A stretch of DNA of 64,000 bases from Microgenomates group bacterium (GTDB lineage: Bacteria; Patescibacteriota; Microgenomatia; UBA10105; UBA927). The notes under the pieces were generated by a model that was given only the letters and a program-made list of their open reading frames with translations, was not told the origin of the DNA and ran no database searches. The position numbers and the translations under genes were made by a program. The stretch lies in assembly GCA_049287205.1 (NCBI GenBank), contig JBAQFJ010000001.1, positions 383,041 to 447,040 on the forward strand, in the 5' to 3' direction. Positions within the stretch are counted from its first letter, which is position 1. Each line of letters begins with the position of its first letter. Shown here piece after piece: positions 1-57,633 of this stretch.

Positions 1-259
1 TTCCTCGTCGATTTCTTTTTTTTGCATGCAGTATCCCAAACAAACGAGCGCGCCTCGGATCATTTTTCCGTTTTGTGCATACTGCGCTATGCGTTGCAGT
101 GCATCCGTGCCCCATGGGGTTTCGGCGATATTGTTTTGCCCTTTTTGTTTTGTGATGTACGCATCAAGGGCAGATAGGATGGAAGCTTTTTTTTCTTGAA
201 GATAGGTGTTGAACATAATTTTCGCAGACACACTTCGCGTGAAGCTACGAGTGCCGCAG

Positions 260-333
260 TCGGGGTGGAGAGACTTGAACTCTCAACCTCATCGTCCCAA
301 ACGATGCGCGCTAGCCAATTGCGCCACACCCCG
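260..333 (-). tRNA. tRNA-Pro (anticodon TGG)
   Basis: Reverse complement CGGGGTGTGGCGCAATTGGCTAGCGCGCATCGTTTGGGACGATGAGGTTGAGAGTTCAAGTCTCTCCACCCCGA folds as a cloverleaf; anticodon loop TTTGGGA; 7-bp acceptor stem. Confidence 0.85.
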
Positions 334-367
334 ATTTTTTCTCTTTTTTTTAAAGAGAATTTATGTA

Positions 368-1387: not shown

Positions 1388-1422
1388 GGCAGTATTAGTA
1401 TTTCGATCCTTTCGTTATTTTG

Positions 1423-1508
1423 TGCCGCGGGCGGGAATCGAACCCACACGGGTGTTAAAGCCCACAGAATTTTAAGTCCTGCGTGTATACCAGTTTCACC
1501 ACCGCGGC
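1423..1508 (-). tRNA. tRNA-Leu (anticodon TAA), long variable arm
   Basis: Reverse complement GCCGCGGTGGTGAAACTGG...CAGGACTTAAAATTCTG...GGGTTCGATTCCCGCCCGCGGCA; anticodon loop CTTAAAA; type-II variable arm. Confidence 0.85.
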
Positions 1509-1572
1509 ATGACACTTCTTATTATTTTACGATAGATTGCGCTTCTTTACCAGTAAATACTTTGTATGTGTT

Positions 1573-2478
1573 TTATCCCGTCCGAAGGACACTTGGGATA
1601 GTCGAGGCTATTTTTTTCAGCTTCGCGACAAAAAAACCTTCCATGAGTTCTGACGGGAGAATGCGGGTCATGGGTTCAACCAGTTCTACCTTCCCCTTTT
1701 CTTTTTTGAGAATCCACTCGACGACATTCTCATTTTCGGATGGTTCAAGTGTGCATGTCGAATAGACGATAATTCCGCCTGGTTTGGTTGCGCTTATTGC
1801 TGATCTGAGCAGCCATCTTTGCCGTTGTACAAGCTCTTTGATTTCTTTTGGTGACCAGTGTTCGTATGTTTTTGAATTGGTTGTGGTGAATGTTCCTTCC
1901 ATACTGCACGGCGCATCAACAAGTGCTTTGTCAAAATACTCCGGATACGTTTGCCAAACGCTTTGCCCTGCGGAAATGACAATGGTTGTATTGGTAACGC
2001 CCTGCGTTTTTAGATTTGCTTCAAGTTTATATCCGCGGATTCTGCTGTTATCATTTGCGATGATTTCGCCAGAATTTTCCATAAGTGCTGCAATTTGTGT
2101 GGTTTTGCTTCCCGGAGCTGCCGCAATATCAAGAATTTTTTCGTCCTTCTGCGGATCGAGCTTGAGTGCGGGAAGTTGGCTAGATAAACTTTGAATGTAA
2201 AACAATCCCTTTGTGTATGCGTCCAGATCCATCAGTTCCCTTTTTTCACTTCGTACGATAAATGAAATGGGCGAAATGTCACTTTGCTCATACTGGATAT
2301 GCGCATCGTCGAATATTTTTTTGACGGCATCCACGGTTGTTTTGAGCGTGTTGACGCGAAGTGTTGTCGGTTTTTGTACGGTATACGCCAAAAGCACACT
2401 AGCGAGTTTATCTGGAGAGACAATAGTTTTTAGTCGTTCAAGAAATTCTTCAGGTAGTTGTCGCCACGGTTCTTTCAT
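1573..2478 (-). CDS. 16S rRNA m5C methyltransferase, RsmB/RsmF (NOL1/NOP2/Sun) family
   Basis: SAM-binding motif LDIAAAPGSKT and catalytic DAPCS / YSTCT cysteine motifs typical of the Sun family. Confidence 0.8.
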   Translation of the reverse strand: MKEPWRQLPEEFLERLKTIVSPDKLASVLLAYTVQKPTTLRVNTLKTTVDAVKKIFDDAHIQYEQSDISPISFIVRSEKRELMDLDAYTKGLFYIQSLSSQLPALKLDPQKDEKILDIAAAPGSKTTQIAALMENSGEIIANDNSRIRGYKLEANLKTQGVTNTTIVISAGQSVWQTYPEYFDKALVDAPCSMEGTFTTTNSKTYEHWSPKEIKELVQRQRWLLRSAISATKPGGIIVYSTCTLEPSENENVVEWILKKEKGKVELVEPMTRILPSELMEGFFVAKLKKIASTIPSVLRTG

Positions 2479-2540
2479 ATACGTATTGTACTATACGGAC
2501 ATAATCAAACGGCTATGTTATAATTTTCGAGTAGTTGTTT

Positions 2541-2622
2541 GCCTCCGTGGCGCAATTGGTAGACGCGTACGCTTCAGGAGCGTATGGAGTAATCCTTAGA
2601 GGTTCAAATCCTCTCGGAGGCA
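2541..2622 (+). tRNA. tRNA-Leu (anticodon CAG), long variable arm
   Basis: GCCTCCGTGGCGCAATTGGTAGACGC...TACGCTTCAGGAGCGTA...GGTTCAAATCCTCTCGGAGGCA; anticodon loop TTCAGGA. Confidence 0.85.
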
Positions 2623-2911
2623 CAAGATTTTCGTTCTTAAGATTAGCTTCAATATTGTTTAATTATGTCCTATAGTTTGACTTCGTAGCTGTTTTTTGGT
2701 AGTATTCATCTACTGTATATCAATAAGCAGCGCGATATATCGTGCTATTTTGTTGGTATACAAAATAAGTTTTTTTGCACATTTACAAGTTACGAAAGAT
2801 TTTTATGGTTTTTACATAATGGGTGGCATTTTGTTTATGAAATTCATAACCAAGGTGCTGTCCATTGTGTATATGCGCAAATTCAAAGTAATGAGAAAAA
2901 GGAGATAATCG

Positions 2912-3418
2912 ATGAGTAAAAGAGTGTTTTTGGTTGAGGCTGGAGAAAAAGGTCCTGGACATACGCTGGATGGGAAGGCTGTTGTAATTGAAGCCGATTT
3001 GGATGACGAAGGACGTTATGCAAAAGTCATCGCACCCCAGGAGTTCGTTAACAGTTGGTCATCAGTGTTGGTCGAAGGATCCATGGGACAATGGACTGAG
3101 TGCAATGGCCCGGCAAGGATATTGTCAGACCACGATTACACTACGCTTTGTGTGCAACTTGTTCCTGCACAGGAGTATAAATACTCGAGAAATGATCCAG
3201 GCTGGGTTGTCGCTGATTCTGTTGAAGCGGCTACAGAAGATCAAACGTATGTTCATGTAACGTATAAAGGCGAGACATATCGCAATCGTCGTGTTACGTG
3301 GCATAACCCACGGCTTGATAAAAGCAAATCAGATGTGCTCGTTGAAGATGAACACTCCGGGTGGTTGTATATCGAATTTTTGAATGCTGATATTAAGCCA
3401 TACAAAAGCAAAAAATAA
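2912..3418 (+). CDS. hypothetical protein (168 aa), orphan gene
   Basis: Strong SD (AAAAAGGAGATAATCG ATG). Preceded by about 270 bp of AT-rich non-coding DNA and followed by a bidirectional hairpin. GC looks higher than neighbouring genes. No recognisable motif. Confidence 0.55.
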   Translation: MSKRVFLVEAGEKGPGHTLDGKAVVIEADLDDEGRYAKVIAPQEFVNSWSSVLVEGSMGQWTECNGPARILSDHDYTTLCVQLVPAQEYKYSRNDPGWVVADSVEAATEDQTYVHVTYKGETYRNRRVTWHNPRLDKSKSDVLVEDEHSGWLYIEFLNADIKPYKSKK

Positions 3419-3445
3419 TCACTAAAAATCTTCGTTTGTAATGTG

Positions 3446-3522
3446 CAAAACCCCCAATTGAATAGTATTCAACTGTCACGTTTGTGACGTTTTTGTTGAA
3501 TGTTATTTGAGCGGGGGTTTTG
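3446..3522. terminator. nested-hairpin element, likely bidirectional intrinsic terminator (member 1 of 3)
   Basis: Outer 10-bp stem CAAAACCCCC/GGGGGTTTTG encloses two small perfect hairpins (TTGAATA-G-TATTCAA and GTCAC-gttt-GTGAC). Lies between convergent genes at 2912..3418(+) and 3525..4673(-). Confidence 0.55.
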
Positions 3523-3524
3523 TA

Positions 3525-4673
3525 TTAGGGGAAAATACTTTTCGCGTACTTCGACAGCAAACTGGCAAGCAAGTCACTGAATTTTACTCCGTAAAGTCCG
3601 ATAACTTCCGTGAGTGGCAATCCCTTGTCTGGTCCAAATGCAGTATTTGGATTGCAGTCGGTAAAATATGGCGTGCCTGTTGTTTCATCGACACGGACAT
3701 CGAATTTTGCGTAGTCTTTGTACCGGAGCCCATTGAATGCGCGAATTGCAAGCTTGGATACTTTGTTTGCTAAATCTTCCTGAACCTTCTTGTATTTGTA
3801 CGCTTTGCTGTCATCGTAGCTTTCAAAACTGGTGAAATAATGTTTGCCGTCCGGCATAGCTCTGAATATTTTTTCACCCATGAATACCTGTTTTTTACCC
3901 TTGTCATCAAAGACAACAACAGTAAGTTCCGGCCCGTCGATAAATTTTTCGACGATAACGCCGACTTTGTAGATGCCAATGAGTTCATCTACCCTCTTTT
4001 GGGCCTCCTTAACGGTCTCTTTGACTGCGTGATTGTTAATGCCCACACTTCCTCCACTTTCGTTTAGTTTGACGATGAGCGGCAATCCCATTGTGTCCTG
4101 TATAGAAGTGCCTGCAAAGCGGATATATTGGAATGCCGGCGTTGGAATCTGATATGCAGTTAATAACTGTTTGATCAAATGTCTGTCATTTCCGATGACG
4201 AGTCCCTGCATTTCAGCTCCCGTGTATGGAATGTTTGCAAGCTCAAGAGCAGCAGGGATTGAAGTCTGCAGTGCGTCTTTGCCTTTGAGCGTATCAACAA
4301 GATTGAGGACTAAATCTGGTCGGTCTACTAATAAATTGGTGAGAAAATATTGGTCACCAGGGTACCCTTTGGCCTTGATGCCCAGTTTTTCAACTTCTTT
4401 GATAACGTCCGCTGCACGCTCCTCTACTTCCACTTCCGCAATGTATGATTCTTCATTGGGAAACCATTCACGCTCAACGTGCGAAAACGCAACGGCTATG
4501 AGATTAAATTTTTTTAATGCTTCAAGATCATTCGTCAGTTCAATTTTTTCTGGGGTCTTGTCTTCTGTTTTTGGTTGAGTCTTTTCTTCCGGTTTTTTTT
4601 CAACTGGCTTTACTTTCGATGCATCGGCTGAGCCTTCGTACTTAACATTCTTTTTAGAAGTTTTTTGGTTCAT
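3525..4673 (-). CDS. ddl: D-alanine--D-alanine ligase family ATP-grasp enzyme with Lys/Glu-rich N-terminal extension
   Basis: ATP-grasp / Ddl-like blocks (GKDALQTSIPAALELANIPYTGAEMQG, LNESGGSVGI, DVRVDETTGTPYFTDCNPNTAFGP). Confidence 0.6.
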   Translation of the reverse strand: MNQKTSKKNVKYEGSADASKVKPVEKKPEEKTQPKTEDKTPEKIELTNDLEALKKFNLIAVAFSHVEREWFPNEESYIAEVEVEERAADVIKEVEKLGIKAKGYPGDQYFLTNLLVDRPDLVLNLVDTLKGKDALQTSIPAALELANIPYTGAEMQGLVIGNDRHLIKQLLTAYQIPTPAFQYIRFAGTSIQDTMGLPLIVKLNESGGSVGINNHAVKETVKEAQKRVDELIGIYKVGVIVEKFIDGPELTVVVFDDKGKKQVFMGEKIFRAMPDGKHYFTSFESYDDSKAYKYKKVQEDLANKVSKLAIRAFNGLRYKDYAKFDVRVDETTGTPYFTDCNPNTAFGPDKGLPLTEVIGLYGVKFSDLLASLLSKYAKSIFP

Positions 4674-4791
4674 AGGCAGTGAAAATAAACCGTATATCTA
4701 TCATACAGATATGCAAACAATAAATGCAACAACTGTAATGCTGTATTTACCGACGCGTTGGATTCTTGTACAATATGCTTTGGTAACGAAT

Positions 4792-4873
4792 GCAGACGTG
4801 GCGGAATTGGTATACGCGTACGCTTGAGGTGCGTATCCCGTAAGGGGTGGAGGTTCAAGTCCTCTCGTCTGCA
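4792..4873 (+). tRNA. tRNA-Leu (anticodon GAG), long variable arm
   Basis: GCAGACGTGGCGGAATTGGTATACGC...TACGCTTGAGGTGCGTA...GGTTCAAGTCCTCTCGTCTGCA; anticodon loop TTGAGGT. Confidence 0.85.
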
Positions 4874-4923
4874 CAAACATTTTGTTTTTTCTTTCGTGGT
4901 ATCATATTCTTCGGAGGCTTCTT

Positions 4924-5229
4924 ATGACAAAAAATCCTTTGGTAAATGGTGTTGGCGCATCGCTCTATATTTTTCTTCTTGTATCTGTGATGACATGGGG
5001 ATCAAAAATGGTGCCGCAGGAAGATAAATTTTTTGCACCGGTTGTTTTCATCTCTCTGTTTACCCTTTCTGCTGCTGTGATGGGATATATATTCTGTTAT
5101 CAGCCTGCGACATTGTATTTTGACGGAAAAAAGAAACAAGGCATGCAACTGTTTCTTAAAACCGTCATTGTTTTTGCAACGATTACGATTGCGCTTGTCA
5201 TATTATTTTTCAGTGGTGTTGTCAGATAA
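4924..5229 (+). CDS. small integral membrane protein, hypothetical
   Basis: Start at MTKNPLV with GGAGG SD; three predicted TM helices. The upstream part of the track ORF overlaps the tRNA. Confidence 0.45.
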   Translation: MTKNPLVNGVGASLYIFLLVSVMTWGSKMVPQEDKFFAPVVFISLFTLSAAVMGYIFCYQPATLYFDGKKKQGMQLFLKTVIVFATITIALVILFFSGVVR

Positions 5230-5247
5230 TTGAAAGGAAATATTTCT

Positions 5248-5604
5248 ATGAATCCACAAACACTTAAAGATAGTTTGGGATGGGGTTTTCTTCTTTGGCT
5301 GATCGGCTATATCCTCGGTATTGTTCTTTTTATGATTGTTCCTGCGCATATGATTGGATGGGTCTTGTCTCCTGCTGCAACACTGTTTACGCTTTGGGTA
5401 CTTATCAGAAAAATTAATAGTAGGAAGTTTTTATATTATTTGATACTTGGCGTAGTCTGGACTGTCATCGCTATAGTGTTTGACTATGTGTTTATCGTGC
5501 AGCTATTTCAATCAGCAAATTATTACAAACTTGATGTGTATGTCTACTATGCGCTCATGCTTATCCTTCCGATGCTTGTAGGATGGCGGAAAATGAAGAA
5601 ATAA
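5248..5604 (+). CDS. small integral membrane protein, hypothetical
   Basis: Start at MNPQTL with GAAAGGAAA SD; several hydrophobic helices. Confidence 0.45.
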   Translation: MNPQTLKDSLGWGFLLWLIGYILGIVLFMIVPAHMIGWVLSPAATLFTLWVLIRKINSRKFLYYLILGVVWTVIAIVFDYVFIVQLFQSANYYKLDVYVYYALMLILPMLVGWRKMKK

Positions 5605-5609
5605 GATCT

Positions 5610-5939
5610 TTAGTGTACGAGTTTGGAAAGAAACATGTTTACGAGTGAAAGCACGATTGCCCCAAGCAGTGCAGTACCGAATCCATTCAGGAAAAATCCC
5701 GGAACAATGCGGCTCGTGATACTGAGCAACAGTGCGTTGATAACGAGCGTAAACAATCCTAACGTTAGGATATTGATTGGTAATGTGAGTACAACGAGTA
5801 TTGGCTTCACAAGGAGTGACAATAATCCCCAAACAATGGAAATGACAATAAGCGGCTGCCAGCCTGCGATCGTGAATCCCGGAACGATATAGGAAGTAAC
5901 ATAGAATGCGAGCGCATTTACTAACAGTTGTATAAACAT
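5610..5939 (-). CDS. DUF360-family membrane protein ('phage holin family IV'-like)
   Basis: IVPGF...KPIL...LTLPINILTLGLF motif pattern of DUF360. Paralog of the ORF at 15471..15875. Confidence 0.6.
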   Translation of the reverse strand: MFIQLLVNALAFYVTSYIVPGFTIAGWQPLIVISIVWGLLSLLVKPILVVLTLPINILTLGLFTLVINALLLSITSRIVPGFFLNGFGTALLGAIVLSLVNMFLSKLVH

Positions 5940-6049
5940 ATATCTTTATACTAAGTCGCTTGGTTGTTGATTGCAAATTTTGTTCATATTTGTCCGTGTT
6001 TGATTTTTGGGTGTTTTCGCAGTATTATCAGGCGATTCCTAAGGAACCT

Positions 6050-7288
6050 ATGCGTATTGAAGCATGTAATCGTTTTGATCGTGATGAGGATCGAAGGCTT
6101 TGGAAAACGAAGCTTCGGATTCCCGACGGGTTAAACATACGGGAGATTCAACCAACAGAACTTCGTGAACGGTTAGGTTTGCAGAGTCCTGATTTGGAAG
6201 AGGTATACAGATCGGCCCTCAAAAATCAATGGTTTGACTGTGATGACGGCAATTTTTTGATTGAGATTCCGAATAATGAGAGGCTTCAAAAAAAGCTCGG
6301 CAGTCCAACAGATACGAGCAAGAGCGAATTGGTACTGTTGTTTGACTTGGACGACACGCTACTTAATACGACAGCTTGGCATGCGAAAGAGCAGGAAATC
6401 ATTCGGACATATCTTGGTGAACAGCAAATTGATGCAACTGCGCAGACTGTTAAGGAATTATACGAATTATCGAAAATCTTTGTTCCGGGTGCTGCAGAAG
6501 TACAAACCCGGTATACGCCTATTTTAAACATGATTCTCATCGATCAATTTATCCGTCGTCAAAAAAATGACGGATTTTCTTCTGAAGAAGCCCTGCGGCT
6601 TTGCCAAACTGAGCATGGCAGAATTCAGGATCGCATCAACACGATTGGTGAAGGGGCGCTTCGTGATTATCATTTTGACCCCACACTCCTTAGCCGCATT
6701 TTGAAAGAGAATCCTCTTCCGGAACATATGAATGCTTCGCTAAATCAAGATGTATTCACCGTCGGATCGGATGGAGATGATCTTATTCGCATGATTATCA
6801 CGAGAGGAAAAATAGAGGGCCCGCTTGGACAAATTTATAAAGTGCACAGCGGTGATTTTACAGAATTTGAAAGCTTGGATATGGTGATTTATACCAATGA
6901 CGTAAAGATCAATGCACTTGCCCGGGTGACAAATATATTTAAAGAACTGCAGTCAAAGCAAATAATCCTGTACGATGATAATCCGAGTGAAATTGTCCCT
7001 TTCCTTGAACAATTTGAAGCGCAGGGTATGAACCCGTTAAAGCTTGAGATTTTTCACGTCAGGAATGTTGATGCGAAACGCCGTGATAAGAAAGTGGTGA
7101 TACATGACGTACATGGAGAACGATGCGTGGATCCCGAAACTAGTTTTGGCTACGCGTATTTTACGGATGAAGAGGATAATCAGATCATGATTCCCATTGA
7201 GTCATTTGCTGAAGTTCCACCAAAATATAACGGTACGATCTTTGATCATTTTTCAATTAATAACAAAGGCATGTCTCAGGTTGTCTGA
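6050..7288 (+). CDS. HAD-superfamily hydrolase-like protein with large cap insertion (about 413 aa)
   Basis: HAD motif I LLFDLDDTLLNT (DxDxT) and motif IV ILYDDNPSE. Start at MRIEAC with AAGGAACC SD. The upstream 30 codons of the track ORF lack an RBS. Confidence 0.5.
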   Translation: MRIEACNRFDRDEDRRLWKTKLRIPDGLNIREIQPTELRERLGLQSPDLEEVYRSALKNQWFDCDDGNFLIEIPNNERLQKKLGSPTDTSKSELVLLFDLDDTLLNTTAWHAKEQEIIRTYLGEQQIDATAQTVKELYELSKIFVPGAAEVQTRYTPILNMILIDQFIRRQKNDGFSSEEALRLCQTEHGRIQDRINTIGEGALRDYHFDPTLLSRILKENPLPEHMNASLNQDVFTVGSDGDDLIRMIITRGKIEGPLGQIYKVHSGDFTEFESLDMVIYTNDVKINALARVTNIFKELQSKQIILYDDNPSEIVPFLEQFEAQGMNPLKLEIFHVRNVDAKRRDKKVVIHDVHGERCVDPETSFGYAYFTDEEDNQIMIPIESFAEVPPKYNGTIFDHFSINNKGMSQVV

Positions 7289-7345
7289 TAGAGGTATCTT
7301 CTGTCAAATTATCCTAATTTTGTGTACAATAGACAGGTAGAATCT

Positions 7346-7417
7346 GGACGATTAGCTCAATGGTAGAGCACTTCGTTTACATCGAAGGGGTTAGGGGTTC
7401 GAGTCCCTTATCGTCCA
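7346..7417 (+). tRNA. tRNA-Val (anticodon TAC)
   Basis: GGACGATTAGCTCAATGGTAGAGCACTTCGTTTACATCGAAGGGGTTAGGGGTTCGAGTCCCTTATCGTCCA; anticodon loop TTTACAT. Confidence 0.85.
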
Positions 7418-7451
7418 CACAAGGCTGTATATATTTTTTTATCCACTTGTT

Positions 7452-8519
7452 GTGACTGACTATTTAAGCAGAAAAATTAAAATTGTTTCCTTTATCGCAA
7501 TTCTGTGCGTGGTGTTTCAACACGCTATTAACTTTACGGGATACATCGACCCTTCTTCGACCTATCTAGGGCAATTAAATTTCAATACCATACTGCAATA
7601 TGTGTTTGGATACGGATTTGCACGAGGAGCAGTTGCGATATTTTTTATGTTGTCCGGTTATTTATTTTTCAGGAATTTTACGCTTAGAAAAACGTTGACG
7701 AAGTTCCGATCCCGTTTCCACAGCCTGTTTATTCCGTATATTTTGTGGGGCGCACTCAGTCTGCTTTTTGTTTTGCTTTTGCAGAGTAAGGGCGGATTTT
7801 TATCCTTATATACAGGTGCTCTGGCAGGTAAATCGTTTATGGAATATCTCCGTATTATTATGAATCACGGTGTTTCATTCCAATTGTGGTTTTTGTGGGA
7901 TTTGATGTTATATACTCTGCTTGCACCTTTGTTTTATATTATTCTACGCTATTCCAACGTGCTGTTTTTGATTCCCGTATATATATTGTGGATGTTGCAG
8001 GTGCCGCTTCCTCCAGCATTCGCATTCCTGTATCGTGGCGGCATTTTCTATTTGCTGGGTGCGTATATTGCCATGTATGGTGTATATATTCCAAAAGAAA
8101 AGGTAAAACCGATTGCTCTCATTTCCATTCTGTTCTGGATGGTCATGCTCGCAATAAAAACGAGTCTTGCATTTGGCGTACTTCCAACCATGTATGTAAA
8201 ACTTTCTCAGATAGACAATATGGCAATGATAATGGGCATTGCAACACTTTGGTTTGGCTATGACAAGATCGCATCGTCAAAACTTATGAATATATTTCTT
8301 GCCGCAACTCCATTCACCTTTTTTTTGTACGCAAGCCATGAACCGCTTTTGGAAGTTATAAAGCAACTCGGGGTGACCCTGACAGGCAGAAGTGATGCTG
8401 CGCTTCTTTTTCTGTACTTTGCATCTATTGTGGTTGTGCTGTTTGTAACAATTGGATGTGGAATTCTCGTGAAAAAATTCACTCCAAAATTCTACAGTCT
8501 TCTGACAGGTGGAAGGTAA
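7452..8519 (+). CDS. acyltransferase family 3 (membrane O-acyltransferase, OatA-like)
   Basis: About 10 TM helices; N-terminal VFQHAIN...FFMLSGYL pattern of the acyltransferase_3 family; GTG start. Confidence 0.65.
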   Translation: MTDYLSRKIKIVSFIAILCVVFQHAINFTGYIDPSSTYLGQLNFNTILQYVFGYGFARGAVAIFFMLSGYLFFRNFTLRKTLTKFRSRFHSLFIPYILWGALSLLFVLLLQSKGGFLSLYTGALAGKSFMEYLRIIMNHGVSFQLWFLWDLMLYTLLAPLFYIILRYSNVLFLIPVYILWMLQVPLPPAFAFLYRGGIFYLLGAYIAMYGVYIPKEKVKPIALISILFWMVMLAIKTSLAFGVLPTMYVKLSQIDNMAMIMGIATLWFGYDKIASSKLMNIFLAATPFTFFLYASHEPLLEVIKQLGVTLTGRSDAALLFLYFASIVVVLFVTIGCGILVKKFTPKFYSLLTGGR

Positions 8520-8581
8520 GGAATATTTTCCGATATTGGCAGATACAGCCAGACATTCTATAATAAAGGTTGTTCGTTTTT

Positions 8582-8654
8582 GCCGAGATGGCCGAGGTAG
8601 TCAAGGCGCTTGTCTGAAAAACAAGTTATCTGGGTGCAATTCCTAGTCTCGGCA
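8582..8654 (+). tRNA. tRNA-Phe (anticodon GAA)
   Basis: GCCGAGATGGCCGAGGTAGTCAAGGCGCTTGTCTGAAAAACAAGTTATCTGGGTGCAATTCCTAGTCTCGGCA, 73 nt; anticodon loop CTGAAAA. Confidence 0.8.
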
Positions 8655-8674
8655 CTGTTACGAATCTTAACAGT

Positions 8675-8746
8675 GCGGCGTTAGTTCAGTGGTAGAATGC
8701 TTCCTTGCCAAGGAAGAGGTCAGCGGTTCAAGTCCGCTACGCCGCT
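8675..8746 (+). tRNA. tRNA-Gly (anticodon GCC)
   Basis: GCGGCGTTAGTTCAGTGGTAGAATGCTTCCTTGCCAAGGAAGAGGTCAGCGGTTCAAGTCCGCTACGCCGCT; anticodon loop TTGCCAA. Confidence 0.85.
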
Positions 8747-8749
8747 CAT

Positions 8750-8950
8750 ATGAAATCAAAAACAAAACGATTATATCGTCCAAATACAGGCCGAGTACTT
8801 TCCGGTCTCCTTGCAGGTGTTGGAGAATATTTTGATACAGATCCTGTTGTGATCCGCTTGATTTTTATTCTTGCAACTGCATTTACCGGATTTGGACCAG
8901 GACTTGTTGCATATATTATCGGAAGTATTGTTGTTCCGAGTGAAGCGTAA
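8750..8950 (+). CDS. PspC-domain membrane protein (66 aa)
   Basis: KRLYRPNTGRVLSGLLAGVGEYFDTDPVVIRLIFIL is the PspC-domain signature. The ATG lies 3 nt after the tRNA-Gly 3' end. The upstream part of the track ORF is the tRNA itself. Confidence 0.6.
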   Translation: MKSKTKRLYRPNTGRVLSGLLAGVGEYFDTDPVVIRLIFILATAFTGFGPGLVAYIIGSIVVPSEA

Positions 8951-8956
8951 AACATT

Positions 8957-9026
8957 GCCGGGTGGTGTAGTGGTAACACGTCTGCCTTTGGAGCAGAAGT
9001 TCCTAGGTCCGATCCCTAGCCCGGCA
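8957..9026 (+). tRNA. tRNA-Gln (anticodon TTG)
   Basis: GCCGGGTGGTGTAGTGGTAACACGTCTGCCTTTGGAGCAGAAG...GGTCCGATCCCTAGCCCGGCA; anticodon loop CTTTGGA. Confidence 0.8.
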
Positions 9027-9031
9027 GCAAA

Positions 9032-15932: not shown

Positions 15933-17258
15933 CTATTTAATAAAGTCTTTTGCGCGTTTAAGTTTGTGGTATGTGATGGCAAACCGGTGTGATTCGTCCC
16001 GAATGCGTTCCAGTAATCGGATGGCGGGACGGTCGTTTTGCATGTGTACAAGTGTGAGGATGGTTCGCACCGGTAGAACGAGTGATTCGTACCGTTTTGC
16101 AAGTCCTACAACAGGAAGAGATACGCCCGCAGTTTTTAAAGCAAGCTGTGCAGCCTTGACCTGTCCTTTGCCGCCATCTATCAGTAATACATCGGGATAG
16201 GGCCATTCCGTATGTTTCAACCGTCGTGTAACCACCTGATGTATCATCGCCGTATCATTTTGTCCGGTGCTTCCGCGAATGGCGAACCTGCGATATTGAG
16301 CGCGATCAATGATGCCGTCTACCATGACTACAAGTGATCCCACAGGAAGTGTACCTGACGTATTGGATATATCTATACATTCAATTTTGTGAATTGCTTG
16401 CATGTCCGGGTAGGCTGAAAGCAAAATATTTTGAAGATCATTGGATTCCTGTTCTATCGTTTCTCCGATCGTTACCATGTCATGCATGTAGAGTGATGGA
16501 TCAAAATGTGTCTGCAACAATTGTTTTATGTGTTCTATCCGATCACGGATAACGGCGGCTTGTTCATATTGTTCGTGTTCAGACAGCAATTTCATTTCGG
16601 TTGATAATTCTGAAATAATGGGAAGAATTTTTCCTTTTAAGATCCGTATAACGCGGAAGATGTTTTTCCGATATGTCTGAACGTTATATTTTTGCAGCTG
16701 CGCATCCTGCATTTTTTCAGTTTCTGAAGGACAGGGATTACACAATCCGATGTGTGTATAAAAGCAGCGTTTTCCATTCCGTATTTTTTGTGTACAAAAT
16801 GGAATACATCTCCTGATGGAACGCAGGATTGATCGTGCGACACGCGTTGATTGAAACGGCCCTGCATAAAACACATGTTTATCCACAGTTTCCGGTTTTC
16901 TTGCAAGCGTAATGCGTGGCATTGACTGCAGAGTGGGGATGGCAATATATATAGGACTTTTGTCGTCCTTCGCAATCATATTATATTTTGGCTGAAATTT
17001 TTGAATAAGACTTGCCTCAAGAATAAGTGCGTCAAATTCTGTAATGGTCTTCACGGTTGAGACGGTGGCAATGTGATCAACAAGTTGCTGGGTTTTGGGG
17101 GACAGCGTCTCTCTTTTTTCAAAATATTGTTTGACTCTGCGCTTGAGGTTCACCGCTTTTCCGACATAGATAACAATGCCTGTATTGTCTTTATACAAAT
17201 AGATTCCCGGGGTTGTTGGAAGTTCGGCTATTTTTTTCTTAAAATCCACCATATACAT
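15933..17258 (-). CDS. uvrC: excinuclease ABC subunit C (UvrC), short form without the C-terminal (HhH)2 region
   Basis: GIY-YIG N-terminus (GIYLYKD...VIYVGKAVNLKRRV), UVR motif (EQYEQAAVIRDRIEHI) and the RNase-H-like endonuclease region. It ends after about 441 aa. Confidence 0.8.
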   Translation of the reverse strand: MYMVDFKKKIAELPTTPGIYLYKDNTGIVIYVGKAVNLKRRVKQYFEKRETLSPKTQQLVDHIATVSTVKTITEFDALILEASLIQKFQPKYNMIAKDDKSPIYIAIPTLQSMPRITLARKPETVDKHVFYAGPFQSTRVARSILRSIRRCIPFCTQKIRNGKRCFYTHIGLCNPCPSETEKMQDAQLQKYNVQTYRKNIFRVIRILKGKILPIISELSTEMKLLSEHEQYEQAAVIRDRIEHIKQLLQTHFDPSLYMHDMVTIGETIEQESNDLQNILLSAYPDMQAIHKIECIDISNTSGTLPVGSLVVMVDGIIDRAQYRRFAIRGSTGQNDTAMIHQVVTRRLKHTEWPYPDVLLIDGGKGQVKAAQLALKTAGVSLPVVGLAKRYESLVLPVRTILTLVHMQNDRPAIRLLERIRDESHRFAITYHKLKRAKDFIK

Positions 17259-55836: not shown

Positions 55837-56609
55837 AGGCGCGTATTGCCATACTCATTTTTTGTATTTCCATTATCGGTGTTCTTGCATATAAATTTTT
55901 AGGCGTATCTAGTGTCATCACGAATCAAGCAACACTACCAACACCAACACTCATTGCAAGACAAACGAACGATACACTCACCTATCAGGACATCGCATAC
56001 GACTACGAATTTTTTACTTCAGACCATCCTGACAGACTGACACTCATAGCGAATTTTGAAACACCTATTCGGGGATCAACACTTGCAGCCAAAAACAAAT
56101 GTGATTATGCGATAAACGGCGGATTTTATGCAACTGCAGGAACACCGCTCGGTGCATTTGTCGGTAACGGATACAATCAGCCTAAAGCACTGAACAGCGC
56201 GTTATTTAACGGTTTCTTTGAATTTAGTGCATCGAAAGCAGTCATCACAACAACAGTTGATACAAACTATACATTTATCCTTCAATCAGGACCATTGCTG
56301 GTCTACAATGCCTCTCCCTTACCACTTGCCATTCAAAACGACGAACATGCGAGGCGATCAGTCGTCGTAATGACCAATGACGGACAAATTCTGTTTGTTA
56401 CTTTCTATATCAATGATTCCATCTACAATGGGCCGCTTCTTGATGATCTGCCGATGATTCTGAAACAATTTGCAGTCGATCAGCGCATTTCGATTACTGA
56501 AGCTTTGAATTTGGATGGCGGCAGTGCAACCTATTTTAAAAATTCAGATATTGAACTCCCAGAGTTAACGCCAATAGGAAGTATGTTTTGTCTACAAAAT
56601 GACCACTAA
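55833..56609 (+). CDS. phosphodiester glycosidase (DUF2233 / NAGPA-like) family protein, N-terminal TM
   Basis: AINGGFY ... LNLDGGSATYF motifs. Confidence 0.6.
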   Translation: MKARIAILIFCISIIGVLAYKFLGVSSVITNQATLPTPTLIARQTNDTLTYQDIAYDYEFFTSDHPDRLTLIANFETPIRGSTLAAKNKCDYAINGGFYATAGTPLGAFVGNGYNQPKALNSALFNGFFEFSASKAVITTTVDTNYTFILQSGPLLVYNASPLPLAIQNDEHARRSVVVMTNDGQILFVTFYINDSIYNGPLLDDLPMILKQFAVDQRISITEALNLDGGSATYFKNSDIELPELTPIGSMFCLQNDH

Positions 56610-56644
56610 ATTCATCTCTCTGTCGTATTGACGAAAAAATTGCT

Positions 56645-56713
56645 ATAATTAGCTTTGTCCTTTGCATTGGGTCGGTAGCTGAATCCCGTTTTGCGGGACA
56701 ATTGGCTCCGATT
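56645..56713 (+). repeat. partial duplicate of the tRNA-Lys 5' half (positions 1-12 and 21-30) with a 47-nt two-hairpin insert replacing the D-loop
   Basis: GGGTCGGTAGCT and AGAGCAGCAG are identical to the intact tRNA-Lys 330 bp downstream. The segment between them contains TCCCG-ttttg-CGGGA and CTCCGATT-g-AATCGGAG hairpins. Confidence 0.6.
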
Positions 56714-56742
56714 GAATCGGAGTAAATAGAGCAGCAGTAAAT

Positions 56743-57015
56743 ATGGCTTGGGTTTACATATTATCTAACCCTTTAACAAACAGATACTATATTGGTTCGA
56801 CAATTGATTTAAAAAGACGATTAAGACAACACACGGCGGGAAATACACGAACAACAAAAGTATTAGGAACAAAAAATTTAGTTTATACTGAAGAGTACAC
56901 AACTGAAAATGAGGCAAGATTAAGAGAAAAACAGATAAAGTCGTATAAAAGTAAAATATACATTGAAAAGTTAATACGGGTCGGTAGCTCAATTGGTAGA
57001 GCAGCAGCCTTTTAA
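56743..57015 (+). CDS. small GIY-YIG nuclease (YhbQ/COG2827-like), C-terminus encoded by the tRNA-Lys gene
   Basis: WVYILSN...YIGSTIDLKRRLRQH...G...LVYTEEY...EARLREKQIK is the GIY-YIG/URI pattern. The last 12 codons and the TAA stop lie inside tRNA-Lys (stop within the anticodon loop). Confidence 0.7.
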   Translation: MAWVYILSNPLTNRYYIGSTIDLKRRLRQHTAGNTRTTKVLGTKNLVYTEEYTTENEARLREKQIKSYKSKIYIEKLIRVGSSIGRAAAF

Positions 57016-57050
57016 GCTGTTGGTTCCGGGTTCGAGTCCCGGCCGGCTCA
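56978..57050 (+). tRNA. tRNA-Lys (anticodon TTT)
   Basis: GGGTCGGTAGCTCAATTGGTAGAGCAGCAGCCTTTTAAGCTGTTGGTTCCGGGTTCGAGTCCCGGCCGGCTCA; complete cloverleaf; anticodon loop CTTTTAA. Confidence 0.85.
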
Positions 57051-57055
57051 CATAC

Positions 57056-57310
57056 TCATACCCCAAGCATATATGTTAACTGTGGCTGATTGAATCCGAC
57101 AACATATTCCGATTTTCTGTCGAGATAGCTAATTTCTATGACTGGAACTCCCATCTGCCCCGTCTTTTCAACCATTTCCTTCGCAGCTGTCTGATCTTGG
57201 TCAACAAGCACTTTTTCAAATGCCACGTTTTTGCTTTTTAGCCAATCAGCAACCATTGTGCAATACGGACATGTTTTGGTGGCATACACTTTTACATTTG
57301 AATAATTCAT
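57056..57310 (-). CDS. glutaredoxin-like protein (NrdH/Grx fold, CPYC active site)
   Basis: VKVYATKTCPYCTMV ... GVPVI pattern. Confidence 0.7.
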   Translation of the reverse strand: MNYSNVKVYATKTCPYCTMVADWLKSKNVAFEKVLVDQDQTAAKEMVEKTGQMGVPVIEISYLDRKSEYVVGFNQPQLTYMLGV

Positions 57311-57573
57311 ACAACCTCCTGTTGTAATATGGTCAGCAACCGAGCTATGTCAGCTGCTTTTTTATACTTTATCGAATACATCATTTCTTTTCCGGATTTT
57401 TTTGTGGAAACGAGACCTGCCACCTTCAGCTTCCTAAGATGCTGTGAGACTGCCGATTGAGATAACCCACATGTGTGGATCATTTCTGTCACATTTTTGG
57501 GGCTTCGTGACAAACAAAGAAGTAATTGCGCTCTCACTTTATTTCCTACTGCGGAATAGACATCATGTACCAT
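57307..57573 (-). CDS. ArsR/SmtB-family transcriptional regulator
   Basis: HTH segment EMIHTCGLSQSAVSQHLRKLKVAGLV; 88 aa; 4-nt overlap with the glutaredoxin gene. Confidence 0.8.
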   Translation of the reverse strand: MVHDVYSAVGNKVRAQLLLCLSRSPKNVTEMIHTCGLSQSAVSQHLRKLKVAGLVSTKKSGKEMMYSIKYKKAADIARLLTILQQEVV

Positions 57574-57633
57574 ATCAATATATTAGCATTTGCTAATATA
57601 TTGTCAATAGGGTATTTCAAAACTGTCAGCTGA

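What the first reader, a model, noticed from the sequence alone, without database searches (positions are those of the whole stretch)
56645..57050. GIY-YIG nuclease gene ending inside an intact tRNA-Lys, flanked by a duplicated tRNA 5' half
The 90-aa GIY-YIG ORF at 56743..57015 reads 35 nt into tRNA-Lys(TTT). Its TAA stop is the TTTTAA of the anticodon loop. The first 30 nt of the tRNA (GGGTCGGTAGCT...AGAGCAGCAG) are repeated 330 bp upstream at 56645..56713, with the 8-nt D-loop replaced by a 47-nt insert that forms two perfect hairpins. A direct repeat of a tRNA fragment bracketing a nuclease gene is the classic footprint of a mobile element that targets a tRNA gene and regenerates it. The element here is only about 300 bp and its only cargo is a free-standing GIY-YIG domain, which is unusual. 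Alternative readings: a homing-endonuclease-like selfish gene, or a relic of a larger integrated element.
Basis: seen in the sequence. Interest (0 to 1): 0.75.

Follow-up and report, generated by a model that had tools for sequence, protein, structure and literature searches.

The report
Tiny nuclease gene that invades tRNA genes
A 240-bp gene for a minimal GIY-YIG nuclease has inserted inside a tRNA-Lys gene, which survives because its first 30 bases were duplicated; the same layout recurs at over 100 tRNA genes of ultra-small (CPR) bacteria and seems undescribed.

Summary
Promoter, tRNA-Lys nt 1-30 (interrupted by two small palindromic inserts), a 90-aa GIY-YIG ORF with no promoter or stop codon of its own, then the intact tRNA-Lys(ttt).

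Orthologous empty sites exist. L124, L127 and L125 carry the same promoter and leader joined directly to an intact tRNA-Lys, with no ORF, repeat or palindromes.

The window is one case of a family-wide pattern:
- 105 of 114 family copies in 107 related loci lie directly 5' of a same-strand tRNA.
- About 10 tRNA species are involved.
- 77 of 103 occupied tRNAs have their own first 12 nt repeated upstream, against 6 of 62 unoccupied ones.
- The duplication starts sharply at tRNA +1 and usually ends near nt 24-27.
- 80 of 94 ORFs terminate at a stop codon inside the tRNA.
- A conserved 17-bp palindrome with a 4-bp local duplication sits in the D-loop of the displaced fragment.

The ORF is under purifying selection (dN/dS about 0.1). 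Related ORFs switch tRNA type, and each has a fragment copied from its local tRNA.

Best reading: a minimal selfish GIY-YIG cassette that transposes into tRNA genes, duplicates its target and is transcribed from the tRNA promoter. The cutting and joining chemistry is inferred, not shown. I found no published description.

The parts
56641..56649 (+). Extended -10 promoter TGCTATAAT of the tRNA-Lys gene. It now drives left fragment, ORF and tRNA.
   Evidence: Sequence. The identical box and leader precede the intact tRNA in the empty sites L124, L127 and L125. Across the family, an exact TATAAT lies upstream of the left fragment in 25 of 56 loci and upstream of the downstream tRNA in 0 of 56.
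56669..56737 (+). Displaced copy of tRNA-Lys nt 1-30: nt 1-12, D-loop remnants, nt 20-30, interrupted by two palindromic mini-inserts. Not a functional tRNA.
   Evidence: Not called by ARAGORN or Rfam. Absent from the empty orthologous sites.
56684..56698 (+). Palindromic mini-insert 1 (TCCCGTTTTGCGGGA) in the D-loop after nt 15/16. It is a decayed form of the family consensus CCCCGATTnAATCGGGG.
   Evidence: Relatives L033 and L034 have CCCCGATGAAATCGGGG at the same place.
56706..56722 (+). Palindromic mini-insert 2 (CTCCGATTGAATCGGAG), a perfect 7-bp dyad lying between G19 and T20 of the fragment.
   Evidence: The same type occurs in L004, L010, L012, L013, L019 and L029.
56738..56742 (+). 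5-nt spacer TAAAT between tRNA position 30 and the ATG. This is the left edge of the inserted cassette.
   Evidence: In the family this spacer is mostly 0-8 nt.
56743..57015 (+). GIY-YIG nuclease ORF of 90 aa. Residues 1-78 form the domain. Residues 79-90 are translated from the junction and from tRNA nt 1-35, and the stop codon lies in the anticodon loop.
   Evidence: Pfam. AlphaFold model pLDDT 85.5 with residues 83-90 below 50. Homologues' C-terminal tails are translated tRNA 5' ends. dN/dS about 0.11.
56978..57051 (+). Intact tRNA-Lys(ttt), the regenerated target gene.
   Evidence: Nearly identical to the tRNA in the empty sites.
57038..57051 (+). tRNA 3' end CCCGGCCGGCTCAC. In the window this is an EMPTY target site for a second, mirror-image GIY-YIG element, which is present in the close relative L032.
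   Evidence: L032 has a 389-bp insertion exactly after this sequence and repeats these 14 nt at the insertion's far end.

Best explanation
The region is a tRNA-Lys gene invaded by a minimal selfish DNA cassette of about 240 bp. The cassette is essentially one 78-aa GIY-YIG nuclease domain, with no promoter, no terminator and no stop codon of its own.

**Insertion (shown).** The cassette lies after tRNA nt 30. tRNA nt 1-30 are present on both sides of it. The upstream copy stays attached to the native promoter as a dead fragment. The downstream copy completes an intact tRNA.

**Expression (inferred).** ORF and tRNA are read as one transcript from the tRNA promoter, with the ORF acting as the tRNA's 5' leader. 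RNase P cleavage at +1 would remove the stop codon, so only unprocessed precursor can give a normally terminated protein. This would keep nuclease levels low.

**Mobility (shown by comparison).** The cassette belongs to a large family in Microgenomates/CPR bacteria that moves between tRNA genes sharing a TAGCTCA[A/G] D-arm. At each new site the flanking fragment is copied from the local tRNA. It begins exactly at +1 and usually ends at nt 24-27. This behaves like a long target-site duplication.

**Chemistry (inferred, about 35% confidence).** The nuclease, or the nuclease with host repair, makes breaks at the leader/+1 junction on one strand and near the boundary of D-stem and anticodon stem on the other. 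The cassette is joined in and the single-stranded gaps are filled. This is formally like the repeat duplication seen in CRISPR spacer or casposon integration.

**Palindromes (observed; role inferred).** The dead fragment acquires 17-bp dyad-symmetric mini-inserts (CCCCGATT-N-AATCGGGG, or CTCC variants) with a 4-bp local duplication. They probably mark or serve the nuclease's own DNA site. They also break up the direct repeat that could otherwise delete the element.

The overall confidence of 0.72 applies to the core claim: a mobile, selfish GIY-YIG cassette inserted in the tRNA gene, with local duplication and expression from the tRNA promoter. It does not apply to the cutting and joining chemistry.
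For: **Insertion polymorphism at the same locus.** Empty sites L124, L127 and L125 share the promoter and leader with the window and with L032, but carry only the tRNA.

**Family-wide position.**
- 105 of 114 copies lie directly 5' of a same-strand tRNA.
- Occupied tRNAs include Lys-ttt and -ctt, Arg-tct, -tcg, -cct and -ccg, His, Ile-tat, Gly-tcc and Asp.

**Local duplication.**
- 77 of 103 occupied tRNAs have their own first 12 nt upstream, against 6 of 62 unoccupied.
- Left/right identity is 0.22-0.40 at positions -12..-1 and 0.93-1.0 at +1..+15, n=60. Positions +1..+12 are partly fixed by how the loci were selected.
- The fragment usually ends at nt 24-27. The spacer to the ATG is mostly 0-8 nt. 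The ORF core ends 1-14 nt before +1.

**Switching of tRNA type.**
- ORFs 80-81% identical sit at different tRNAs. Examples are L050 (Lys) with L093 (His), and L075 (Lys) with L010 (His).
- Only pairs at 85% identity or more always share a tRNA.
- After a switch the whole fragment carries tRNA-specific D-loop variants: GGCAGAG, CTTGGTTAGAGC, TGGATAT.
- L027 has a clean 26-nt repeat with no palindrome.

**No own expression signals.** TATAAT lies upstream of the tRNA-proximal side in 0 of 56 loci. 80 of 94 ORFs stop inside the tRNA.

**Functional protein.**
- dN/dS is 0.11, 0.085 and 0.21 in three comparisons.
- 17 columns are invariant in an alignment of 35 family members, including Y16, R26, H30 and E62.
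- The model has the GIY-YIG fold and matches 1ZG2, the UvrC N-terminal domain and I-TevI.

**Target preference.** 67 of 74 occupied tRNAs have the TAGCTCA[AG] D-arm, against 22 of 54 unoccupied (p 1.4e-9).

**Palindromes.**
- 113 instances were found. Flanking 4-mers follow the local sequence: TCAA 54, TCAG 18, also TAAA, TTAA, TAGA, CAGA.
- Compensatory double changes occur at 3 of 7 stem pairs.
- 94 of 103 occupied sites have a palindrome, against 7 of 62 unoccupied.

**Decay and turnover.** Pseudogenes occur in L004/L037, L031, L095 and L107. Tandem arrays occur in L065 and L095.
Against: - No biochemical activity is known for this family.
- An 80-aa catalytic domain with no DNA-binding domain is not expected to recognise a long site on its own.
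- The intact downstream tRNA still carries any tRNA-internal recognition sequence. A simple 'cleave the empty allele' homing model therefore lacks an obvious self-immunity mechanism.
- GIY-YIG enzymes are not known to act as transposases, and the known ones leave 1-2 nt overhangs, not about 26 nt.
- No terminal inverted repeats were seen on the cassette.
- About 25% of occupied sites have a fragment that does not match the local tRNA well. In L024 and L044 the element seems to have arrived together with a foreign tRNA-Ile. Recombinational transfer of whole cassettes therefore also occurs.
- The source of the conserved palindrome at each new site is unexplained.
- The ORF tree rests on only 78 residues.
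- All data are metagenome assemblies. Repeats of this kind can cause local misassembly, and L100 may be an example.
Confidence: 0.72

Rival explanations
1. It is a classical free-standing homing endonuclease gene of the T4 Seg type. It does not transpose. It spreads only between alleles of the same tRNA locus by double-strand-break repair or ordinary recombination. The left fragment and the tRNA act as portable homology arms that are co-converted with the ORF.
For: - GIY-YIG family, with T4 SegB as a precedent inside a tRNA cluster (PMC2330249).
- Synonymous divergence between the window and L032 is lower for the ORF (dS 0.49) than for all five flanking genes (0.85-2.26).
- Presence or absence does not follow similarity of the neighbouring NAGPA gene: the empty L124 is 72% identical, the occupied L032 is 65%.
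- The left fragment keeps lineage-specific marks (GCTGAA; CAATTGG in L033, whose own tRNA has CAACTGG), so it travels with the ORF.
- L024 and L044 show an incoming tRNA-Ile beside remnants of the resident one.
Against: - ORFs 80% identical occupy different tRNA species, each with a fragment copied from its own tRNA, including the tRNA-specific acceptor strand and D-loop. Repair templated from a different tRNA would give a chimeric tRNA with a mismatched acceptor stem.
- There is no DNA-binding domain.
- The protein scores below the cut-off of the group I intron endonuclease family TIGR01453 (25.4 against 56 bits).
- The occupied allele retains an intact copy of the presumed target.
Confidence: 0.2
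2. It is a domesticated, host-beneficial arrangement acting at the RNA level. The tRNA 5' fragment with its hairpins would be a structured 5' UTR or small RNA that controls tRNA maturation or translation of the ORF. The GIY-YIG protein would serve the host in repair or RNA processing.
For: - Purifying selection acts on the ORF.
- Hairpin stems are conserved and show compensatory changes.
- The left region folds better than shuffled sequence (z -2.58).
- ORF and tRNA are necessarily co-transcribed.
- The purine-rich D-stem strand (GGTAGAGCA) lies at Shine-Dalgarno distance from the ATG.
Against: - Close relatives do without it (empty sites).
- Pseudogenised copies are common.
- Where the left acceptor strand differs from the tRNA, the change does not preserve pairing with the tRNA 3' strand (by eye on the pairs listed: L003, L022, L059, L060; not computed).
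- The palindrome is dyad-symmetric up to a single central base: T-N-A in 78 of 113, with N complement-symmetric (A 37, T 28, G 8, C 5). No G.U intermediates were seen.
- In a sister subfamily the same insert occurs in both orientations (L045 against L081).
- These last points indicate a DNA-level feature.
Confidence: 0.07
3. It is the relic of a larger integrated element, such as a prophage or genomic island that entered by site-specific recombination at the tRNA and later decayed. Alternatively it is a chance repeat or an assembly artefact.
For: Direct repeats of a tRNA segment are the usual signature of integrase-mediated insertion. Several contigs break at these loci (L001 ends inside the tRNA).
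Against: - The occupied and empty alleles differ by exactly 309 bp: a 240-bp cassette, a 30-nt duplication and 39 nt of mini-inserts.
- No integrase or other cargo appears in more than 100 loci.
- The repeat is at the 5' end of the tRNA.
- The identical sequence is present in independent assemblies (L001, L002).
- The pattern recurs across many studies and assemblers, including megabase-scale contigs up to 1.0 Mb and a complete chromosome.
Confidence: 0.02

Closest known systems
Free-standing GIY-YIG homing endonucleases of phage T4 (SegA-G, especially SegB in the tRNA gene cluster; PMC2330249, PMC13096335)
   Same: GIY-YIG catalytic domain. A selfish gene lodged among or next to tRNA genes. 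Presence/absence polymorphism. Signs of preferential or horizontal inheritance.
   Different: Seg proteins are about 200-250 aa with a DNA-binding domain, whereas this one is 78 aa of catalytic domain only. Seg genes have their own expression signals. They do not split a tRNA gene, do not duplicate a tRNA segment and have no palindromic mini-inserts. They are phage genes, not cellular ones.
UPF0213 / YhbQ-type (COG2827) stand-alone small GIY-YIG proteins (PDB 1ZG2, 1YWL)
   Same: Closest by sequence and fold (E 1.3e-7 and 4.7e-6; Foldseek top hit). Same size, single domain.
   Different: Their function is unknown, and I found no report of a tRNA-linked or mobile arrangement for them. Identity is only 22-30% (Foldseek alignments).
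tRNA-targeting integrative elements (prophages, genomic islands, ICEs with tyrosine integrases)
   Same: They insert into a tRNA gene and regenerate it, leaving a direct repeat of a tRNA segment at the other end.
   Different: Those elements use an integrase, usually duplicate the 3' part, carry the repeat within the element (attP) and are kilobases long. Here there is no recombinase, the 5' part is duplicated, the repeat is copied from each local target, and the element is 240 bp.
Casposon and CRISPR-spacer integration by Cas1 (PMC4046053)
   Same: Insertion with an unusually long duplication (14-15 bp for casposons, a whole repeat for CRISPR) that is anchored at a defined junction. Casposons also target tRNA 3' ends. 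The mirror-image element in L032 has terminal inverted repeats and a 14-bp duplication of the tRNA 3' end.
   Different: No Cas1 or any integrase is present. The only protein is a GIY-YIG nuclease. The resemblance is formal only and was not tested.
Mobile G+C-rich palindromic clusters and double-hairpin elements of fungal mitochondrial DNA; bacterial REP/RAYT systems (from my own knowledge, not checked in papers here)
   Same: Very short palindromic inserts that occur singly or in tandem, with short target duplications. In REP/RAYT they lie next to a cognate nuclease gene.
   Different: Here the palindrome is 17 bp. It is confined almost entirely to the dead tRNA fragment next to the GIY-YIG gene and is not dispersed in the genome. 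The nuclease belongs to a different superfamily from the HUH-type RAYT.
Group I introns in tRNA genes of Patescibacteria (PMC13011429)
   Same: Same phylum. Selfish insertions in tRNA genes.
   Different: Those are ribozymes in the anticodon loop that are spliced out. Here no intron RNA is detected, the tRNA is intact downstream, and that paper mentions neither GIY-YIG nor duplication.

Membership tests
GIY-YIG nuclease superfamily (Pfam PF01541) | Profile match above the curated cut-off | tested here: met
   56.3 bits against a gathering score of 22.6, E 4e-15, residues 1-69.
GIY-YIG nuclease superfamily (Pfam PF01541) | Conserved motif and catalytic residues (two Tyr-containing beta strands, Arg, Glu) | tested here: met
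   VYIL and YYIGS motifs. Y16, R26, H30, Y48, E50, R61 and E62 are invariant in 35 family members. Mapping these onto the catalytic residues of I-TevI or UvrC rests on my own knowledge and was not superposed.
GIY-YIG nuclease superfamily (Pfam PF01541) | Alpha/beta fold with a three-stranded sheet flanked by helices | tested here: met
   AlphaFold2 model pLDDT 85.5 with element order E-E-H-H-E-H-H. Foldseek hits are 1ZG2, the UvrC N-terminal domain (TM 0.58), I-TevI and Slx1.
UPF0213 / YhbQ-like small GIY-YIG proteins | Single-domain protein of about 90-100 aa with closest similarity to BH0048 and EF2693 | tested here: inconclusive
   These are the best PDB sequence hits (1.3e-7 and 4.7e-6), but no curated NCBIfam model is passed. 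This looks like a distinct CPR subfamily.
Homing endonuclease gene (free-standing, Seg/I-TevI type) | Site-specific cleavage of the allele that lacks the gene | not testable with these tools
   Needs purified protein tested on the empty-site DNA (sequence of L127 3300-3420).
Homing endonuclease gene (free-standing, Seg/I-TevI type) | Catalytic domain linked to a DNA-binding domain that gives long-site specificity | tested here: not met
   Only residues 1-78 are conserved and folded. Residues 83-90 are translated tRNA and disordered. TIGR01453 scores 25.4 bits against a cut-off of 56.
Homing endonuclease gene (free-standing, Seg/I-TevI type) | Presence/absence polymorphism at a conserved site, with signs of horizontal spread | tested here: met
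   Empty and occupied orthologous sites. ORF dS is 0.49 against 0.85-2.26 for the flanking genes.
Integrase-type tRNA-targeting integrative element | Site-specific recombinase gene within the element | tested here: not met
   The 240-bp cassette holds only the GIY-YIG ORF.
Integrase-type tRNA-targeting integrative element | Direct repeat of a tRNA segment flanking the element, with the tRNA regenerated | tested here: met
   nt 1-12 and 20-30 are repeated. However, it is the 5' part that is repeated, and it is copied from each local tRNA.
Group I intron in a tRNA gene | Intron ribozyme structure interrupting the tRNA | tested here: not met
   Rfam E-value scan of 56000..57600 finds only the tRNA, and the tRNA is uninterrupted.
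Cut-and-paste DNA transposon or MITE | Terminal inverted repeats plus a target-site duplication | tested here: inconclusive
   For the cassette, a long local duplication is met, but no terminal inverted repeats were seen by eye on the palindrome-free copy L027. The 17-bp palindromes do have dyad symmetry and a 4-bp local duplication.

The most novel reading that the evidence does not exclude
The 78-aa GIY-YIG protein is itself the mobilising enzyme of a previously unrecognised class of DNA transposon. It would be the smallest autonomous mobile element known, at about 240 bp. It would recognise the D-arm of tRNA genes, possibly as a dimer on its dyad symmetry or as a branched or cloverleaf DNA structure. 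It would insert with a 24-31-bp duplication anchored at tRNA +1. It would also mobilise 17-bp palindromes with 4-bp duplications. A sister subfamily does the mirror image at tRNA 3' ends, with a 14-bp duplication. This would be transposition catalysed by a nuclease fold not known to do it without a reverse transcriptase.
Probability: 0.3. Interest if true: 0.92.

Novelty: new variant of a known kind. Interest (0 to 1): 0.8.

Why it matters
- **Biology of CPR bacteria.** The essential, single-copy tRNA genes of ultra-reduced CPR bacteria appear to be routinely colonised by the smallest conceivable selfish genes. These survive by rebuilding their target and borrowing its promoter.
- **Mechanism.** The arrangement raises a concrete question: how does a lone 78-aa nuclease domain, or the host repair it provokes, produce a precise duplication that starts at tRNA +1? 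Answering it could uncover a new DNA-insertion chemistry. It could also yield a very small sequence- or structure-specific nuclease.
- **Practical annotation.** These elements create pseudo tRNA halves, ORFs that appear to read into tRNAs, missed tRNAs and contig breaks in CPR genome assemblies.
- **Scale.** The family is large: 2,145 clusters at 50% identity with E at most 1e-10.

Tried and rejected
1. **Other copies in the window.** None of the ORF or the palindromes. The only weak hit is the UvrC N-terminal domain at 15933..17258.
2. **Palindrome in viral contigs.** 14 hits; all eight displayed (plus-strand matches) are stand-alone hairpins, several followed by T-runs, and no locus has a tRNA or GIY-YIG gene nearby.
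3. **Palindromes as excision footprints of a larger element with CCCCGAT ends.** Solo half-sites in 431 kb are at or below chance and lie in coding DNA. Not supported.
4. **Sequence after the palindrome is donor-derived, so the true duplication is only nt 1-16.** Rejected. That part tracks tRNA-specific D-loop variants.
5. **Left acceptor strand pairs with the tRNA 3' strand in RNA.** Differences between the left and right copies do not preserve pairing (by eye on the pairs listed).
6. **Empty sites among the GIY-selected loci by all-against-all BLAST.** None found, only decayed copies. Empty sites had to be reached through the neighbouring NAGPA gene.
7. **Permissive -10 box scan (one mismatch allowed).** Uninformative in this AT-rich DNA. 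Exact TATAAT was used instead. The generic promoter/terminator scan missed the extended -10 and found no terminator.
8. **Curated libraries (NCBIfam, PADLOC, PHROGs).** No family passed its cut-off.
9. **Literature.** Seven full-text searches and one paper check found no description of this arrangement. The library lacks most subscription journals, so absence is not proof.
Full report
**1. What is in the window**

ARAGORN and Rfam place an intact tRNA-Lys(ttt) at 56978..57051. A 90-aa ORF at 56743..57015 is a GIY-YIG domain (PF01541, 56.3 bits against a cut-off of 22.6). It runs 35 nt into the tRNA and stops at the UAA formed by U36-A37-A38.

Upstream, at 56669..56737, tRNA nt 1-12 and 20-30 recur in order.

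The D-loop between the two repeated blocks is not replaced. It is still recognisable (GAA / CAATTGG / T) and is split by two small palindromic inserts at 56684..56698 and 56706..56722.

An extended -10 box, TGCTATAAT (56641..56649), lies 19 nt upstream of the first base of the fragment. No promoter or terminator lies between the ORF and the tRNA.

The 12-mer occurs nowhere else in the 64 kb, and none of the nine other tRNAs has such a repeat. The identical sequence is present in two further independent assemblies (L001, L002). The source is a Microgenomates-group (CPR/Patescibacteria) genome.

**2. It is an insertion: empty sites exist**

I reached orthologous loci through the upstream NAGPA-family gene. 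In L124, L127 and L125 the same TTGCTATAAT box and leader (TAGCTTTGT.C.TT...) run straight into an intact tRNA-Lys. There is no ORF, no repeat and no palindrome (alignment A3).

The window and L032 carry the insertion. So do L033, L034 and L036. L037 carries it as a pseudogene (ATG GCG TGA).

Relative to the empty allele, the window has 309 extra bp:
- a 240-bp cassette (56738..56977);
- a 30-nt duplication of the tRNA 5' part;
- 39 nt of palindromic mini-inserts.

Relatives without the ORF do not carry the repeat.

**3. The window is one instance of a family-wide pattern**

Homologues are 80-90-aa proteins from Patescibacteria. Their C-terminal tails (GR*, GPVAQR*, GRAAAF*) are translated tRNA 5' ends.

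I fetched 29 genome loci and 78 metagenome loci. The counts are:
- 105 of 114 family copies lie directly 5' of a same-strand tRNA. Most exceptions are cut off by contig ends.
- Occupied tRNAs: Lys-ttt 40, Arg-tct 24, Lys-ctt 13, His 10, plus Arg-tcg, -cct and -ccg, Gly-tcc, Ile-tat and Asp. The few Glu-ttc sites belong to a more divergent ORF (MCYLYILKSYNF...).
- 77 of 103 occupied tRNAs have their own first 12 nt (at most 1 mismatch) upstream, at a median of -309. Only 6 of 62 unoccupied tRNAs do.
- 94 of 103 occupied tRNAs have the palindrome motif, against 7 of 62 unoccupied.
- In 60 non-redundant loci, left/right identity is at background (0.22-0.40) from -12 to -1 and jumps to 0.93-1.0 from +1. 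The duplication starts at the first base of the mature tRNA. Positions 1-12 are partly fixed by my selection of loci. The informative result is the background level upstream.
- The fragment usually ends at nt 24-27 (range about 20-34). The ATG follows within 0-8 nt. The conserved core ends 1-14 nt before tRNA +1. The inserted unit is therefore little more than the ORF.
- An exact TATAAT precedes the left fragment in 25 of 56 loci and the downstream tRNA in 0 of 56.
- 80 of 94 ORFs have no stop codon of their own. They end at tRNA nt 8-10 (52 cases), 19-21 (11 cases) or 36-38 (9 cases, as in the window).

**4. The protein**

The AlphaFold2 model is confident for residues 1-82 (mean pLDDT 85.5). 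It is disordered for the tRNA-encoded tail, residues 83-90.

The nearest solved relatives are the UPF0213 proteins 1ZG2 and 1YWL, then the UvrC N-terminal domain, I-TevI and Slx1. Y16, R26, H30, E62 and other residues are invariant. No curated family model is passed.

dN/dS is 0.11 (window against L032), 0.085 (against L034) and 0.21 (against L036). The protein is therefore maintained by selection.

The family is large: 2,145 clusters at 50% identity with E at most 1e-10.

**5. Evidence for movement**

(a) Empty and occupied alleles exist at one locus (section 2).

(b) Between the window and L032, ORF synonymous divergence (dS 0.49, pS 0.36) is lower than in all five flanking genes (dS 0.85-2.26). 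Occupancy also does not follow similarity of the neighbouring gene: the empty L124 has 72% NAGPA identity, the occupied L032 has 65%.

(c) ORF relatedness is uncoupled from tRNA identity. Pairs at 85% aa identity or more always share a tRNA (6 of 6). At 75-85% identity only 36% do. Below 75% the value is the 25% background (see also the tree).

(d) After such switches, the entire fragment carries the idiosyncrasies of the local tRNA, including the part downstream of the palindrome. Examples are GGCAGAG in L093, CTTGGTTAGAGC in L089 and TGGATAT in L016. The fragment is therefore made from the target at each insertion and is not carried by the element. It behaves as a long target-site duplication.

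(e) L027 and L096 show what looks like a pristine insertion: a perfect 26-nt repeat, no palindrome, and the ATG 2 nt after nt 26.

(f) Later events are visible:
- tandem arrays (L065, L095);
- fragment-ORF-fragment-tRNA layouts (L016, L054);
- internal deletions and pseudogenes (L031, L107, L004/L037);
- short-patch co-evolution of the two copies, as in L036.

(g) Occupied tRNAs are enriched for a TAGCTCA[A/G] D-arm: 67 of 74 against 22 of 54 (p 1.4e-9). The samples are not phylogenetically independent.

**6. The palindromic mini-inserts**

Upstream of family ORFs I found 113 instances of a 7-3-7 dyad. The stems are CCCCGAT/ATCGGGG (88), CTCCGAT/ATCGGAG (10), TCCCGAT/ATCGGGA (3), CCCCGAC/GTCGGGG (3) and a few others.

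Three of the seven pairs show double compensatory changes, with no one-sided intermediates. The instances were selected for having at most one mismatch, so the percentage paired is biased upward.

The central triplet is T-N-A in 78 of 113 instances. The dyad is therefore really 8+1+8, with N = A 37, T 28, G 8, C 5.

The four bases on each side are identical and follow the local D-loop: TCAA 54, TCAG 18, also TAAA, TTAA, TAGA and CAGA. This is a genuine 4-bp target duplication.

Copies occur in tandem and nested (L008, L011, L021, L029, L030). In a sister subfamily the same 24-nt insert is found in both orientations (L045 against L081).

These properties point to a DNA-level dyad, meaning a site for a dimeric protein or a tiny mobile insert, rather than an RNA hairpin. 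Against random orientation, a longer variant (CCCCGATAGCAACGACTAATCGGGG) has the same orientation at five different tRNAs.

Because the fragment is made anew at each insertion, the conserved palindrome must be delivered separately each time. Its source is unexplained. It is not dispersed in the 431 kb examined. Its matches in viral contigs lie next to no tRNA or GIY-YIG gene, and several look like ordinary terminators.

**7. How it most likely works**

*Shown:*
- The insertion lies inside the tRNA gene with a 5' duplication that regenerates the gene.
- The cassette has no promoter or stop codon of its own.
- The family is widespread, switches targets, is under purifying selection, and acquires palindromes.

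*Inferred, strong:* ORF and tRNA are co-transcribed from the tRNA promoter, with the ORF as the tRNA's leader.

*Inferred, moderate:*
- RNase P cleavage at +1 removes the stop codon, so little full-length protein is made.
- The purine-rich D-stem strand just upstream of the ATG serves as a weak ribosome-binding site.
- The palindromes interrupt the 24-31-nt direct repeat and so slow deletion of the element by repeat recombination. They are also the likely cognate DNA site of the nuclease.

*Inferred, weak (about 0.35):* insertion proceeds by breaks at the leader/+1 junction and near the boundary of D-stem and anticodon stem on opposite strands, followed by joining and gap filling. A possible alternative is extension of the broken gene end on the mature tRNA as template, which would also stop at +1. 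That alternative is speculative and untested.

Whole cassettes are additionally exchanged between genomes by recombination in the conserved tRNA and flanks (L024, L044; dS result).

**8. Comparison with known systems and novelty**

It works partly like a free-standing homing endonuclease gene. T4 SegB is the nearest case. It also works partly like a tRNA-targeting integrative element.

It fails defining features of both. It has no DNA-binding domain, and it has no recombinase. It also duplicates the 5' end from the local target.

It is not a group I intron. A recent survey of tRNA introns in Patescibacteria does not mention it. Seven full-text searches found nothing equivalent.

I classify it as a new variant of a known kind: a selfish nuclease gene that targets tRNA genes. 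There is a realistic chance (about 0.3) that it represents a categorically new, nuclease-only transposition mechanism.

Noticed in passing
L032:2433-2821, against window 57051/57052 (empty): A second, mirror-image class of GIY-YIG element. L032 has a 389-bp insertion immediately 3' of tRNA-Lys. It encodes a different GIY-YIG subfamily (MPWFVYILFCDEKTYYVG...). It has inverted terminal repeats (TTCGACAAGCTCA ... TGAGCGAAGTCGAA). It ends with a 14-nt repeat of the tRNA 3' end (CCCGGCCGGCTCAC). Similar 3'-side elements with repeated tRNA 3' ends occur in L010, L021 and L067; L027, L045 and L101/L102 have the 3'-side ORF but no clear repeat of their own tRNA's 3' end. 15 of 19 such copies lie directly 3' of a tRNA.
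   Followed up: partly
L024:3001-3400 and L044:2440-2850: At tRNA-Ile(tat) the ORF is followed by a complete tRNA-Ile. Next to that lie remnants of a different tRNA-Ile allele. In L024 the remnant lacks nt 1-7 and has the palindrome in place of about 10 nt. In L044 only the 3' end CAAGCTAGCCCACCA remains. It looks as if the cassette arrived together with a foreign tRNA and displaced the resident one.
   Followed up: partly
L012:2930-3625: Two different GIY-YIG subfamilies lie in tandem before one tRNA-Arg(tcg). Each is preceded by its own tRNA-Arg 5' fragment. The second fragment carries a different perfect palindrome (TCCGCCAGCTGGCGGA). Other subfamilies also have their own palindromes, for example L010 CCTGTCTGCCGACAGG and L018 CCCCGCTAAGCGGGG. 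This suggests that nuclease subfamily and palindrome sequence co-vary.
   Followed up: partly
L065:1-440 and L095:1500-1960: Tandem arrays (ORF - fragment with palindrome - ORF - tRNA). In L065 at least 42 nt, and in L095 about 19 nt, before the fragment are identical to the sequence before the tRNA, as expected from unequal recombination between the two tRNA copies. The L095 ORF is a pseudogene.
   Followed up: partly
L100:215-310: The palindrome sits in the D-loop of a full-length tRNA-Arg(tct) downstream of the ORF, and ARAGORN does not call this tRNA. It is either a disabled tRNA or a de Bruijn graph misassembly across the repeated D-arm.
   Followed up: no
L018 (minus strand 1380-1950), L045 (1150-1680), L081 (1-560): A more divergent GIY-YIG ORF (MCYLYILKSYNF...; it still scores best with the main family's query) occupies tRNA-Glu(ttc). 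In L018 its fragment extends into the anticodon arm, with a second insert in the anticodon loop. L045 and L081 carry the same 24-nt insert in opposite orientations.
   Followed up: partly
window 8582-8655: The gene called tRNA-Phe(gaa) has a D-arm of the type usual for Ser, Leu or Tyr tRNAs (GGCCGAGGTAGTCAAGGCG) but a short variable region. This is an odd tRNA worth a second look.
   Followed up: no
window 259-9028: A dense cluster of eight tRNA genes (Pro, three Leu, Val, Phe, Gly, Gln). None carries a GIY-YIG cassette, even though tRNA-Val(tac) has the same TAGCTCAATGGTAGAGC D-arm as the invaded tRNA-Lys.
   Followed up: partly
record titles: Many genome loci that carry this clearly CPR-type element are deposited under the title 'uncultured Gammaproteobacteria bacterium' (binchicken and SRP co-assemblies). 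This is probably a generic mislabel of the MAG records.
   Followed up: no
proteins P0215 and P0220: Some library representatives are 205-214 aa long with two GIY-YIG stretches. Many others have 20-60-aa N-terminal extensions. These are probably gene calls that read through tandem arrays or start inside the tRNA fragment and palindromes.
   Followed up: no
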